This document shows, piece after piece, positions 40,201 through 44,300 of a stretch of DNA of 64,000 nt. The position numbers and the translations under genes are program-made. This DNA comes from Saccostrea echinata (lineage: Eukaryota). The notes below the pieces were generated by a model that was not told where the DNA came from, ran no database searches, and was given only the letters and a program-made list of their open reading frames with translations. Numbering within the stretch: the stretch's first letter is position 1; each line of letters begins with the position of its first letter. Where the stretch lies: assembly GCF_033153115.1 (NCBI RefSeq), contig NW_026889758.1, positions 44,516,001-44,580,000 on the forward strand. Reading direction: 5' to 3'.

Positions 40201-40991
40201 AGTTGAATAATTTTATACAGTGTTTTGTTTTAAATAAAGTTGTTTTTGAGCAATATCTTTTAGTATGTGATAAAAATCAGGAAATTACTGATATATATAA
40301 GTTTAAAATCACAAATTTAAATAACTAATTATCAATAATGGCCTGATTCATCACATTTTCAAGTGACAGTCCAGTGCACCTTGGTAAGTTCAGGAAATAA
40401 ATCTCCTTACTGTTTCTGTTGGATAAAAGCTGCAATACCTCATCTAAAGAGACACTTATATTTTTAATTAATAATAGATGAGTAATTATATAAGCTGTCC
40501 TGCTTGAGTTAACCAAAAGCAAATTTTTACATGGGATCAAGATGCATTATTGTGAATGACAGTGTCGTCCTTTTACCTGAAGGTGTTGAAACTGCTTCTT
40601 TTCTTTCTGGAGCTTTTACTGGTGTTTCTTTTTCAGAGGATGAAGTGATGGGATTGTTTTCAAATGATTCACCCAGTAAGTCAAAACCTGAAGCAGGGGG
40701 TGCAGAGGGTTTCAAGGGTTCAATATTACTTGGAATAGAATCGAAACCTGTTTGGGATTTCTGACCAAATGGTTCGTTATCATCAAGATCTAACAGATTT
40801 TGAGTGTTTTCATTACCAGCTACTGTTTTTGCTGGTAAAGAATATCCAGGCTCATAACGGTCTGCCTCCACCGTCTCACCCGAAAATGACGTGGTGGTCA
40901 CCTCCTCGTCTTGCTCCGGGATTCTGTCCACTTTCTCGAAGTCTTCTTGGCTCGCATCTTTATGTTCCATGTGCTCGCTATTAAGGTCCAT
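22378..40991 (-). CDS. RTN1: Reticulon (RTN1-4/Rtnl1 family), 338 aa; coding exons 40577-40991, 37766-37795, 29717-29924, 29324-29462, 27662-27731, 27515-27561, 22635-22693, 22378-22426
   Basis: Reticulon homology domain ([14 protein letters not shown]…[13 protein letters not shown]…[27 protein letters not shown]…FTLPKVYE). RHD exon sizes 208/139/70/47/59 match the conserved reticulon pattern. C-terminal KEKKQ is a dilysine-type ER signal. The symbol is approximate (likely pre-duplication ortholog). Confidence 0.93.
22635..22693 (-). CDS. Reticulon RHD exon (59 nt)
   Basis: [19 protein letters not shown]. Confidence 0.92.
22917..23452. mobile_element. PIF/Harbinger-type MITE
   Basis: 27-bp TIR TGCCCTGTTCACACGGAGAGTTTAATT, 3-bp TSD TTA, internal TTCGCATTA/TTCGAATTA repeats. 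Confidence 0.88.
24108..24581. mobile_element. hAT-type MITE nested in a degenerate HINE-like element (~23578-25552)
   Basis: TAGGGCTGT…ACAGCCCTA, 8-bp TSD GACAATAC. Confidence 0.88.
26263..27373. mobile_element. Foldback element with ~425-bp near-identical inverted arms
   Basis: Arms 26263-26689 and 26952-27373, 262-bp spacer, CACAG termini, 8-bp TSD ATACAGAC. Confidence 0.93.
27515..27561 (-). CDS. Reticulon RHD exon (47 nt)
   Basis: [16 protein letters not shown]. Confidence 0.92.
27662..27731 (-). CDS. Reticulon RHD exon (70 nt)
   Basis: [23 protein letters not shown]. Confidence 0.93.
28550..29285. repeat. Degenerate ~137-bp tandem array (HINE-type central repeats)
   Basis: Recurrent AAGGTCATGAGG, TTTGGAAAGGTCTTG, TCTCTCATTCAAAAGTTAT. 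Confidence 0.7.
29324..29462 (-). CDS. Reticulon RHD exon (139 nt)
   Basis: …[16 protein letters not shown]. Confidence 0.95.
29717..29924 (-). CDS. Reticulon RHD exon (208 nt)
   Basis: [15 protein letters not shown]…GHPFK. Confidence 0.95.
33879..34845. mobile_element. HINE-like element (same family as 8894-9703)
   Basis: AACAAGATGCCAATGGGCC…GCTCACCTGAG start, ~165-bp repeats, GCTCACTTGAGC…GGTGAGCT end. Confidence 0.85.
34850..37232. mobile_element. HINE-like element with a 168-bp central tandem array (~9 units)
   Basis: AACAAGAGGCCCAAGGGCC start, GGTCACCTGAGTGACTCAGGTGACC end, GACGCAC microsatellite; GGGCCATGAA recurs every 168 bp from 36041 to 36881. Confidence 0.88.
37766..37795 (-). 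CDS. Reticulon 30-nt micro-exon ([10 protein letters not shown])
   Basis: ttttacag / gtaagt boundaries, phase 1-1; DPR-V sequence typical just before the RHD. Confidence 0.75.
39588..40004. mobile_element. MITE with ~35-bp TIRs
   Basis: AAAAAAATAATAGTCTTGTTTCCTGCTACC / GGTAGCAGGAAACAAGACTATTATTTTTTT; CCGACCGACC and CCTACCTACC sub-terminal motifs. Confidence 0.8.
40577..40991 (-). CDS. Reticulon exon 1, acidic disordered N-terminus
   Basis: ATG at 40991, open acidic/Ser-Pro ORF, phase-1 donor CAG|GTAAAA compatible with downstream exons. Confidence 0.8.
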
Positions 40992-41272
40992 TCTTCTGAG
41001 CAACGATGCTTGTCAGACTGTCAATTCTTGATTTCTTCTGGATTTCTGGTTTCAACACTGGTCGGTTAGCCAGTGAACTTGACGTAATTTCACAGGCATG
41101 CGCAAGAAACGTAATTTCCTGTCTCGGGATTTTTCATCACACTGCCTGAAAACACCCGATGAAAAGAGAATTCAGTTCATTGGTCGATTTCTGAAGTATT
41201 TACAAATCAGATCTTGTGTTACTCAACAGTTCGTGAGTGTAAGTCTGGAATGATAGTATAAACACGCGAAAA
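40992..41272. promoter_or_regulatory. Putative bidirectional promoter shared by reticulon and SPTLC2
   Basis: 281 bp between divergent ATGs, locally CpG-rich. TGACGTAA at ~41080, NRF1-like GCATGCGCA at 41096-41104 flanked by two ACGTAATTTC copies, ATTGG at ~41179. Confidence 0.7.
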
Positions 41273-41398
41273 ATGGCAAGGGATGGATTTGAGGTGGCGG
41301 TGAACGGAATAAATAATAATTACAAACATTCAAACGGAAAAACTAATGGCATTAGAGCATATTCAAATGGACATAAAGTGAATGGAACTTATAATAAA
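41273..41398 (+). CDS. SPTLC2: SPTLC2 exon 1 ([12 protein letters not shown]…NGTYNK)
   Basis: aaaATGG start, Asn-Gly-rich N-terminus, gtaaga donor, phase 0. Confidence 0.8.
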
Positions 41399-44300
41399 GT
41401 AAGACTATTATTTTCGAGATGAAATTATTCAAATAGATAAAAATAACGAGTATAAAACTATAAGTATCTAATGTTTCTTGTGAAGTGGCACCAAATTTGA
41501 TTCCATAAAGGTCTTTAGGGTATATTTTCTACATAATAGAATGTCTTAAATTATTGAGTAAATTGCATATTAAGTGATGTGCTCTTAATTCGATGTTGAA
41601 AGACACACCCATGCACTATCAACTGATTATTTGGGTTATTCCCCTTTATAGTGTGAGTCTGTTGCCAAAACAAAACCATGTGTTTTCAAAGCCAGGTCAA
41701 AATGTGGTTGCTTAATCAAGAACACTTGCATTGATTTTTTACCCATTTAAAAAAAAGCAATAATTATAAACTTGGTACCTTTAGATTCACAAGTTTCCAT
41801 TTCAGGAAATGAAGACTAAATTGTACTGTGAACTATATGAAATATTTGTATGTAGATATAAATTGAAGGAGCTCTTTGAATTAATAATGAATCTGACATG
41901 TGACAGAATGAATTTAATAAAGTTTGTTTATACTTAAGTTTGCATCTCCTTTTTTTTAAAAAACAAAAACTTTTCTTTGATTTTTATGTATGACAGTATT
42001 TGATAAGAAATTTAATAATGGGTAGATTTGCCTAAACAAACAGGTCATTCATGCAGTTTAAATTAACTGTAAAATACAGAATGATATTAAGCACTATTTA
42101 ATTCTTAAGAATCAGTATGTATAAATACATTAAAATGGTTGCATAAAGATTTTCTTGTGAATCGCTGCTTTGACTTATAATAGTTTGAAAAGTTTTTCTT
42201 GGATAAAATTGTCAACCAGATGTAAACTTGTTCCATTATTTTTTTAATTAATACATGAGTTATTTTCTATACCTGCAGAAAATTTAATATTGAATTGTTC
42301 AAGAATTTAAACCCAAGAATAAACTGAAGAAGTATGTACAAACATGCCAGTCATTTATCAAGGACAATACATCATAATGTATAATAATAGTGTTTTTGTT
42401 TTTAAAGACAAAATATTGACCTGACAAATAATCACCAGTACTGTTTGTAACAAAAATAGAATACCAGTATAAACCTGAAGTTATCTGATTTTTTTTTTCT
42501 TCTTGTAAAATTGGCCATTGTTTTCTGGATTTATTGCTCTACATTTACTGACCTGGGTCATTGCAGGATTTTGAAATGTAATTCTTTAAAGGGAACTGCA
42601 TAGTCTAACATGCATTGGCCTTGTGAATAAAATGTCTGATTAATTCAAAAAGTATTATGTAAGCTTTAAATGGCAGTTACAGTGCAAACACAACATTAAA
42701 ATTTTTACCCATGGGTCTAAGAAAAAGTGTTTTCACATCCTGACCATATTTTTGTTTGGTACAGAACATTTATCCCAACATTGGTTAGTCCCTTTATTCC
42801 CTGATTTACATTAAAGTCCTCTATTAATATTGCCTCAAATGATGAAAGAAGTAGCTAGACTATTAAACACAAAATATCAGAGATGGATTCTTTTACAATT
42901 CTTGGATGGTTCGCAAAATGTGAAACCCAATTTTCAATTTCTATCACATACATATTTGCTGCCATAAAATCAATTCCTAATATACGATCATTAAGGATAT
43001 CTGCTAGCAACATGTTTCATTCAATAAGAAGTCTCTAGAAATGTAATTGAGCAGGTGAAAAGACTATTATAAACATTATAATTATGAAGATCTGATTTTT
43101 ATCATTAAGATTTGTTTACTGCTAGACAGTAAAACTTCATTATAAAAGAATGAAATGCTCTGCATGTGATGTCTTAAAATATTGGGTTGTCTTGACATTT
43201 TAGGTATGCTATATATTAATACTTGTACATAATTAAATAACCTACCTAGTAGCTTTTCTTGCATACAGTTTCTTACAAATTGTTCACACATTTGCTTGTT
43301 GTCATGTTTTATACTGAATGTAATATGAATCATTTATAGAAAAAAAAATGAAAATAGATTTTTTCTGGGTTCGATAATACCCGGATATGAGAATGTTTTA
43401 GAATCTCGGAGAAATATTTGTGGACCAAAGTATTCTTCACAAATGCACATTGTGCCAAAATGCACATCATTTGGATTGTGCATGTTTTACTGCATGTACT
43501 TCATTTTTATGTATTGAATGTTTCAATGTCTTTCTTTCCTCTTGCTAAAACAAAATGTTAATGATATAGTATGAAATACCAATGTATTCAACAAATATGA
43601 ATTGCAATAATGAATCAAAAATTGGTGTTATGGAATGTTTGATGAACCCTAGGATAGATAATATAACTTCATTTTAAACATAATTGACAAATGAAAGTGT
43701 GAAGAATTGTGTAATAATATAGCTAAGGGCTATAGAAAGTAGTTTGATTTGTTATTAGCTGATATATGTGACTTGTTTATAGCATTGTCTGTCAGCTCAA
43801 CTGAGGGAAGGTCTTCAATTGACAGAAAGACCCAAGTGCAATTTTAAAAATTGTCCCTCCATTATTACACTTGTAAGAGGTTAATGTTTAGGAAGTTGTT
43901 TTTGACTTGAAACCAATGAATGATATTGCCCATCACTTAAGATAAATATATATGTATTGATTGCTTGGCGTAAATAAAACATGTTTATGCAAAATAAATG
44001 ACAAAGGGGAAAACCTTCTACCCTACAACAATACTTTACAGGAAAATTAAACTAGTCATGAAATTGAAATTTAATTTTCAGGTACAGTCTACCAAAAGTA
44101 TTCCTTCATTTAAAGAACATTTTGAACAAACACCTCTTGGTGTTGCAATATGGACATATTTAGGATATGCTATCTTAGTTGTGATTGGACAAATTAGAGA
44201 TTTCCTACGCAGTATTGGAATCGAGAAGATCAAATCATGCACGGAGCCAAAATTACCAGTAAGATTTTTTTTTCACCTTTTACTGAATGAATTACATAAC

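What the first reader, a model, noticed from the sequence alone, without database searches (positions are those of the whole stretch)
40900..41400. Reticulon and serine palmitoyltransferase share a ≤281-bp bidirectional promoter: an enzyme and its possible inhibitor co-wired
Seen: divergent ATGs at 40991 and 41273, with both 5'UTRs and the promoter in between. The region has an NRF1-like GCATGCGCA flanked by two ACGTAATTTC repeats and a CRE/ATF-like TGACGTAA. Established: both products are ER membrane proteins, and mammalian Nogo-B (RTN4B) has been reported to bind and inhibit SPT. Inference: this layout would couple the rate-limiting sphingolipid enzyme to the long reticulon isoform, a possible ancient co-regulated ER sphingolipid module.
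Basis: partly seen in the sequence, partly recalled or inferred. Interest (0 to 1): 0.7.

Follow-up and report, generated by a model that had tools for sequence, protein, structure and literature searches.

The report
Ancient reticulon–sphingolipid enzyme gene pair
In this oyster, the gene for an ER-shaping protein (reticulon) and the gene for the first enzyme of sphingolipid synthesis start back to back 281 bases apart, and they appear to be neighbours in several other molluscs and a ribbon worm, but nothing yet shows that the one regulates the other in these animals.

Summary
Observation confirmed. The window is a rock oyster (reticulon matches Saccostrea echinata isoforms exon by exon). Reticulon (RTN, minus, ATG 40991) and SPT2/SPTLC2 (plus, ATG 41273) diverge across 281 nt. 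The gap holds a CpG-retaining motif cluster: CRE-like, NRF1-like, ETS/CRE-like and CCAAT. That is ordinary housekeeping bidirectional-promoter grammar. New here: the pair looks old. The genes share a contig in 26 of 28 assemblies, including 8 of 9 contigs under 5 Mb. Accession numbers are consecutive in a scallop, mussel, abalone, argonaut and the nemertean Lineus. The pair seems broken in some clams and caenogastropods. Orientation outside this window and the start sites were not seen. The 'long isoform' idea is wrong: all four examined isoforms start at 40991. Best reading (0.6): a conserved head-to-head housekeeping pair, kept by a shared promoter that is hard to break; about 2,400 close pairs are reported for Spiralia. 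An enzyme-plus-inhibitor module (Nogo-B analogy) stays possible (0.15) but untested. No report of the pair found. New member of a known kind; interest 0.45.

The parts
22381..40991 (-). Reticulon gene (RTN, Pfam PF02453). Coding exons at 40991-40577, 38740-38717, 37796-37767, 32939-32853, 29925-29716, 29461-29324, 27731-27663, 27562-27503, 22693-22634, 22425-22381 (tblastn spans; edges approximate to within a few codons)
40577..40991 (-). RTN first coding exon, with three alternative phase-1 donors (exon ends 40880, 40817, 40577). Used by all 4 examined isoforms. Carries an acidic F-E-x-V LIR-like motif and a PSAP motif
40992..41272 (.). 281-nt divergent gap; GC 0.40, 11 CpG, CpG o/e 0.97; inferred shared promoter plus both 5'UTRs
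41080..41091 (+). TGACGTAATTTC: CRE/bZIP-like site overlapping repeat copy 1
   Evidence: motif name recalled
41096..41104 (+). GCATGCGCA: NRF1-like site (2 mismatches to the 12-mer consensus)
   Evidence: consensus recalled
41109..41121 (-). Repeat copy 2, read on the minus strand as CAGGAAATTACGT: variant of the overlapping ETS-CRE motif GGAAGTGACGT; the pattern GGAA[AG]T[GT]ACG occurs once in the window and in 11 of 5000 shuffles
   Evidence: PMC3464117 passages
41177..41185 (-). GACCAATGA: CCAAT box (NF-Y-like); 181 of 5000 shuffles, 11 copies in the window, so weak on its own
41250..41261 (+). Upstream ATG with a 3-codon ORF just before the SPT2 start
41273..41398 (+). SPT2 first coding exon (42 codons, GT donor at 41399)
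41273..61521 (+). Serine palmitoyltransferase long-chain base subunit 2 gene (SPTLC2/3-like, PF00155); the exon at 50604-50828 carries GTFTKSFG (PLP-lysine motif, role recalled)

Best explanation
A conserved head-to-head pair of ER housekeeping genes on one short bidirectional promoter. A central cluster of about 50 bp (41080-41129: bZIP/CRE-like, NRF1-like, ETS-CRE-like sites) keeps an unmethylated open patch. From it, polymerase fires leftward into RTN (start probably near 41040-41080) and rightward into SPT2 (start probably near 41170-41230). Both genes are therefore broadly co-expressed. A break inside 281 nt would cripple two genes at once, which has kept the pair together since the mollusc-nemertean ancestor, with losses in some lineages. 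Shown: gene identities, starts, gap, motifs, CpG patch, same-contig and accession adjacency elsewhere. Inferred: start sites, factor binding, bidirectional firing, orientation in other species, and the reason for persistence. No specific RTN-on-SPT regulation is needed.
For: CpG: 27 in 40701-41500 versus 7 in 41601-44200. Motif cluster beyond shuffles. NF-Y, GABPA and NRF1 are listed as enriched in bidirectional promoters; about 11% of human genes have divergent promoters within 1 kb, and about 23% of the housekeeping genes analysed within 300 bp (PMC10887517 passages). No strong splice acceptor in the gap on the plus strand and one weak candidate on the minus strand. In 12 of 80 RTN transcript-like contigs with the same type of N-terminus, 80-192 nt lie before the ATG; a UTR of that length fits in the gap. 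Conservation. Conserved 5'-5' pairs are a known class: 595 CAMPs, enriched in head-to-head orientation (PMC3514665 passages); 2398 stable and 2471 close pairs in Spiralia, and an NRF1-bound vertebrate example (PMC13508932 passages).
Against: No start-site or expression data. GTGAG (41233) and GTAAG (41239) donor-like words lie in the putative SPT2 5'UTR. SPT2 has alternative N-termini in C. virginica, two Mytilus, two Haliotis and Dreissena, so a second promoter exists in relatives; no clear counterpart was found in this window. Strand and distance in other species are unknown. Apparent non-adjacency in Solemya, Dreissena, Littorina, Pomacea and Ruditapes shows the link can be broken.
Confidence: 0.6

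Rival explanations
1. Functional enzyme-plus-brake module: the shared promoter makes SPT2 together with a reticulon that binds and restrains SPT, as Nogo-B does in mammalian endothelium, so sphingolipid flux is buffered whenever ER biogenesis is induced. Selection on this coupling keeps the pair.
For: Nogo-B binds and inhibits SPT (PMC12376012 passage); NOGO-B knock-down raises SPT activity (bioRxiv 10.1101/2021.10.22.465503 passage). Adjacency is retained even in a cephalopod and a nemertean, although cephalopod genomes are heavily reorganised (PMC9023564 passages). In oysters, which have two SPT2 paralogues, the one on the RTN chromosome groups with the Pinctada copy (support 93) and the other is longer-branched (quick tree).
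Against: In mouse endothelium Rtn4 and NOGO-B rise while SPTLC1/2 protein is unchanged (PMC11862206 passage), so the known control changes the ratio, which a shared promoter would oppose. ORMDLs, not Nogo-B, give the fast control. A profile of the spiralian RTN N-terminus gave no hit at E<0.05 on the four amniote-type Nogo-A/B N-termini among 142 representatives; two RTN3/4-like N-termini scored only 0.04-0.05 (paralogue labels from recalled C-terminal motifs). The promoter serves all isoforms. The pair seems lost in several lineages. Human RTN1 and SPTLC2 are both on 14q but megabases apart (recalled). The subunit bound by Nogo-B is recalled as SPTLC1, not SPT2 (Cantalupo 2015, not read).
Confidence: 0.15
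2. Two separate promoters that merely sit back to back, or a distant main start with a non-coding first exon for one gene. Adjacency is inherited ancestral gene order that has not yet been broken by chance.
For: Alternative SPT2 first exons in relatives. Donor-like words in the gap. Several lineages lost the adjacency. Most stable pairs show no sign of co-regulation (PMC13508932 passage).
Against: There is one motif cluster in the middle of the gap, not two. The CpG patch is centred on the gap. No strong acceptor lies upstream of either ATG. Retention across two phyla is hard to get by chance: randomised gene orders gave about 0.015 conserved pairs (PMC3514665 passage; their criterion was four or more lineages).
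Confidence: 0.15
3. Competitive switch: the two start sites are so close (about 100-150 nt) that they compete for the central sites, giving anti-correlated RTN and SPT2 output between cells or conditions.
For: Promoters with start sites within 200 bp can act as switches (PMC10887517 passage). This would suit an enzyme and its inhibitor better than co-activation.
Against: The near-symmetric layout (repeat, NRF1-like palindrome, repeat) resembles the housekeeping type described in the same review. Both proteins are needed in most cells (established knowledge).
Confidence: 0.08

Closest known systems
Conserved ancestral microsyntenic pairs (CAMPs) in 5'-5' orientation, e.g. HSPD1-HSPE1 (Irimia 2012, PMC3514665)
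   Same: Non-paralogous housekeeping neighbours, head-to-head, gap under 1 kb, kept across phyla
   Different: So far seen only in Mollusca and Nemertea. Their list (Table S2) could not be read, so whether this pair is in it is unknown
[quoted passage not shown]
   Same: Clade-restricted head-to-head pair with an NRF1-like site; about 2,400 close pairs are reported for Spiralia
   Different: Different genes. No RTN or SPT term in the two supplementary files held; their Table S16 is on Dryad and was not seen
Vertebrate housekeeping bidirectional promoters (NRF1, GABP/ETS, ETS-CRE, NF-Y)
   Same: The same motif types in a CpG-retaining patch
   Different: AT-rich mollusc context (GC 0.40); the ETS-CRE site is a variant (CAGGAAATTACGT versus CGGAAGTGACGT); no binding data
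Nogo-B (RTN4B) inhibition of SPT in mammalian endothelium
   Same: The same two protein families; the oyster reticulon loop matches RTN4 fragments in the PDB (E 2e-25)
   Different: The mammalian genes are not neighbours (recalled); control there is by changing Nogo-B alone; the N-terminal part is not detectably homologous; no invertebrate data found

Membership tests
Bidirectional promoter gene pair | Two protein-coding genes on opposite strands, diverging | tested here: met
Bidirectional promoter gene pair | Transcription starts less than 1 kb apart | tested here: inconclusive
   ATGs are 281 nt apart with no strong acceptor; no reads were laid; word shares are only a weak hint
Bidirectional promoter gene pair | CpG-rich patch with NRF1/ETS/NF-Y-type motifs between the genes | tested here: met
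   (sequence matches only)
Bidirectional promoter gene pair | Shared elements drive both directions; correlated expression | not testable with these tools
   needs a dual reporter and quantitative RNA-seq
Conserved microsyntenic pair (CAMP-type) | Non-paralogous genes adjacent in several distant lineages | tested here: met
   consecutive accessions in Bivalvia, Gastropoda, Cephalopoda and Nemertea; an indirect test
Conserved microsyntenic pair (CAMP-type) | [quoted passage not shown] | tested here: inconclusive
   two phyla only; annelids, brachiopods, ecdysozoans and deuterostomes lacked one partner in the lists
Conserved microsyntenic pair (CAMP-type) | 5'-5' orientation conserved across species | not testable with these tools
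   no strand data for other genomes; the metagenome scans gave no genomic locus
Nogo-B-type SPT inhibitor | Reticulon homology domain | tested here: met
Nogo-B-type SPT inhibitor | N-terminal region homologous to Nogo-A/B | tested here: not met
   no hit at E<0.05 on four amniote-type N-termini; disordered regions diverge fast, so this is a weak test
Nogo-B-type SPT inhibitor | Binds SPT and lowers its activity | not testable with these tools
   needs co-IP and an enzyme assay
SPTLC2/LCB2 subunit | Best match to SPTLC2 rather than SPTLC1; PLP-lysine motif present | tested here: met
   (P0006: E 1e-217 versus 3e-47); GTFTKSFG in the window exon

The most novel reading that the evidence does not exclude
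Reticulon control of SPT is far older than mammals: lophotrochozoans hard-wire the enzyme subunit and its reticulon brake to one promoter and have kept this for more than 500 million years (age recalled). Oysters or other molluscs would then be a single-reticulon model for how a membrane-curving protein restrains sphingolipid synthesis, possibly tied to ER-phagy through the conserved LIR-like motif in the first exon.
Probability: 0.15. Interest if true: 0.72.

Novelty: new member of a known kind. Interest (0 to 1): 0.45.

Why it matters
The Nogo-B/SPT link is known only from mammals, and its interplay with ORMDL control is called undetermined (PMC12376012). An RTN-SPT2 neighbourhood kept from oysters to a ribbon worm is a cheap evolutionary hint that the link may be ancient. 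It is testable in animals where only one reticulon locus was seen in the hit lists for most species. If it is only a promoter-locked housekeeping pair, it is one of thousands and matters mainly as a marker of lophotrochozoan gene order.

Tried and rejected
No whole genome is held. No sequencing reads were laid, so start sites, UTR introns and expression remain open. Complex prediction of C. virginica SPT2 (residues 40-540) with the RTN membrane domain (143-344) gave no answer: score 0.00 twice, alignments not used, SPT1 absent; it counts neither way. Metagenome scan with the RTN N-terminal alignment: 73 pattern matches, 0 confirmed. Scan with the full RTN alignment: 80 loci kept of 176, all short transcript-like contigs; none holds SPT sequence or matches the promoter. 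No RTN-SPT fusion among 142 representatives. ESM Atlas gave no usable hit for the RTN N-terminus. Rfam: no family in 37000-45000. The sigma-70/terminator scan is irrelevant for a eukaryote and was disregarded. A counterpart of the C. virginica alternative SPT2 first exon was not found. The careful tree did not finish; only the quick tree of 44 rows was seen. Same-chromosome sharing on large chromosomes was rejected as evidence, since ancient linkage groups explain it. Large RefSeq accession gaps were rejected as evidence of loss: four Haliotis species give gaps of 1, 16, 202 and 1098. Three searches of earlier scan findings returned nothing.
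Full report
1. What is there. The window is from a rock oyster. The reticulon exons match RefSeq S. echinata reticulon-1-A-like isoforms letter for letter over the exon spans, and an SPT exon is 97% identical to S. cucullata SPT2. RTN runs on the minus strand from ATG 40991 to 22381 in ten coding exons. SPT2 runs on the plus strand from ATG 41273 to about 61520; a full-length relative is closest to human SPTLC2. Both ATGs are residue 1 of full-length relatives and have A at -3 and G at +4 (sequence). 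The gap is 281 nt.

2. The gap. It has GC 0.40 and CpG o/e 0.97. CpG counts are 27 in 40701-41500 against 7 in 41601-44200, the pattern of an unmethylated promoter between methylated gene bodies (established for oysters; recalled). The named motifs are present. In 5000 shuffles, GCATGCGC[AG] appeared 0 times, TGACGT[AC]A 102 times, any 10-mer repeat 251 times and a nearby CpG 10-mer repeat 19 times; the motifs were picked after the fact. TGACGTAA is part of repeat copy 1. Copy 2 reads CAGGAAATTACGT on the minus strand, a variant of the ETS-CRE composite CGGAAGTGACGT (PMC3464117, passages; 11 of 5000 shuffles). A CCAAT box lies at 41185-41177. NF-Y, GABPA and NRF1 are among the factors listed for ordinary bidirectional promoters (PMC10887517, passages). 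Start sites were not observed. Indirect hints: no strong acceptor in the gap; 80-192 nt before the ATG in 12 of 80 transcript-like RTN contigs with the same N-terminal type; five runs holding 0.65-0.72 of the words versus 0.58 for coding parts alone (weak). Against: two donor-like words at 41233 and 41239 and several upstream ATGs.

3. Isoforms. All 4 examined S. echinata RTN isoforms (cluster representatives of 8 sequences; 266-375 aa) begin at 40991. Exon 1 has three donors (ends 40880, 40817, 40577). All 14 examined O. edulis isoforms share their first exon too. So the promoter feeds all of this RTN output, not a long form only. Exceptions exist elsewhere: short RTN forms without this exon in Patella, Octopus and Liolophura. 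SPT2 has alternative N-termini in C. virginica, M. edulis, M. galloprovincialis, H. rufescens, H. cracherodii and Dreissena; none was located in the window.

4. Conservation. In 26 of 28 assemblies where both genes were listed, an SPT2 and RTN share a contig length; Pomacea and Ruditapes differ. On whole chromosomes this is expected. It also holds for 8 of 9 RTN contigs under 5 Mb (0.45-4.3 Mb). Of 20 assemblies with numbers for both, 5 are consecutive: Mizuhopecten OWF46433/434, M. edulis CAG2250261/260, H. rubra XP_046576495/496, Argonauta GAB1599842/843 and Lineus XP_064623882/883. Seven are within 3 (adding M. californianus and Pecten) and 10 are within 16 (adding P. caerulea, O. edulis and H. 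rufescens). The other 10 are 61-7287 apart. RefSeq gaps are noisy (Haliotis 1, 16, 202, 1098; C. virginica 2539), so large gaps there say little. Locus tags or GenBank numbers suggest real separation in Solemya (176), Littorina (799) and Dreissena (7287), if they run in order, and not every paralogue was looked up. In P. caerulea four tags lie between RTN and two tandem SPT2 genes. Left out of the counts: Batillaria (tags 518 apart, no contig length for RTN); species with only one partner listed (for example Lingula, Octopus, Paralvinella, Aplysia, Biomphalaria, Owenia, Tubulanus and all deuterostomes); and second assemblies of two Mytilus species. Each search showed only its best 120 hits. 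That consecutive numbers mean neighbours is an inference, and strand and distance are unseen. Even so, adjacency in three mollusc classes and a nemertean points to an ancestral arrangement older than 500 million years (age recalled).

5. How it most likely works. One open promoter drives two ER housekeeping genes, and the short shared region resists breakage (0.6). This is a known class: 595 conserved non-paralogous pairs enriched for 5'-5' orientation and co-expression (PMC3514665, passages), and 2398 stable and 2471 close pairs in Spiralia, most stable pairs without signs of co-regulation (PMC13508932, passages). The enzyme-plus-brake reading (0.15) rests on Nogo-B binding and inhibiting SPT (PMC12376012, passages; bioRxiv 10.1101/2021.10.22.465503, passages; PMC12594915, passages; the original 2015 paper was not read). 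Against it: in mouse endothelium Nogo-B rises while SPTLC1/2 protein does not (PMC11862206, passages); the spiralian N-terminus does not detectably match amniote Nogo-A/B N-termini; and the pair seems lost in several lineages. Independent promoters with neutral persistence (0.15) and a competitive switch (0.08) are the other rivals.

6. Novelty. Full-text searches found no paper with reticulon + SPTLC2 + synteny (0) or reticulon-1 + serine palmitoyltransferase 2 (0). Searches (12 papers; 9; 11) listed no title or abstract opening on this pair; most were seen as listings only. No reticulon row appears in seven supplementary files of PMC9023564 (blocks there need three genes). None of the nine 'reticulon' places in the supplements of PMC2871058 pairs it with SPT (Lottia does not appear in its main text). 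No hit in two files of PMC13508932. Irimia's Table S2 and the Dryad Table S16 were not seen and may list the pair. PMC8605320 (passages) added nothing on reticulons. The library lacks most subscription papers.

7. Verdict. A real head-to-head pair with an ordinary-looking promoter and, unexpectedly, deep conservation; function unproven. New member of a known kind, interest 0.45. The novel case has probability 0.15 and would deserve 0.72.

Noticed in passing
window 40880-40991 and about 40690-40720 (minus), RTN exon 1: An acidic [DE]-F-E-x-[VL] LIR-like motif is present in 40 of 50 aligned RTN rows (0.5 expected by shuffling) and a P[ST]AP motif in 28 of 50 (1.1 expected; rows are related). The LIR-like motif is kept in all examined oyster isoforms, and similar DDFEHL words occur in other unnamed RTNs. 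This hints at an ER-phagy receptor role; motif meanings are recalled.
   Followed up: partly
window 52636-58967 (minus), inside an SPT2 intron: Ngaro/DIRS-like tyrosine-recombinase retrotransposon with long open frames: 253 aa without a Pfam hit, RT 580 aa, recombinase 335 aa, GDSL/SGNH 205 aa. Split direct repeats are 98-100% identical (52636/53990 and 53796/58759), so it is a recent insertion; class name recalled.
   Followed up: partly
window 17773-18030 (minus), probably continuing to lower coordinates: Asparaginase-like gene downstream of RTN on the same strand (weak Pfam hit, E 0.001). Human ASPG, RTN1 and SPTLC2 all lie on chromosome 14 (recalled), which suggests one ancestral linkage group.
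   Followed up: no
window 39585-40007: MITE-like element with 40-nt inverted ends, 90% complementary, in RTN intron 1.
   Followed up: no
window 34161-36910, 14853-16014, 8975-9550, 3383-5075: Tandem arrays of 168-171, 128-146 and 38 nt units in introns.
   Followed up: no
relatives: SPT2 has been duplicated repeatedly and separately in molluscs (abalone, limpets, oysters, Gigantopelta, Sinanodonta, Solemya), often on the RTN-bearing contig; Patella vulgata also lists extra short reticulon-like genes.
   Followed up: partly
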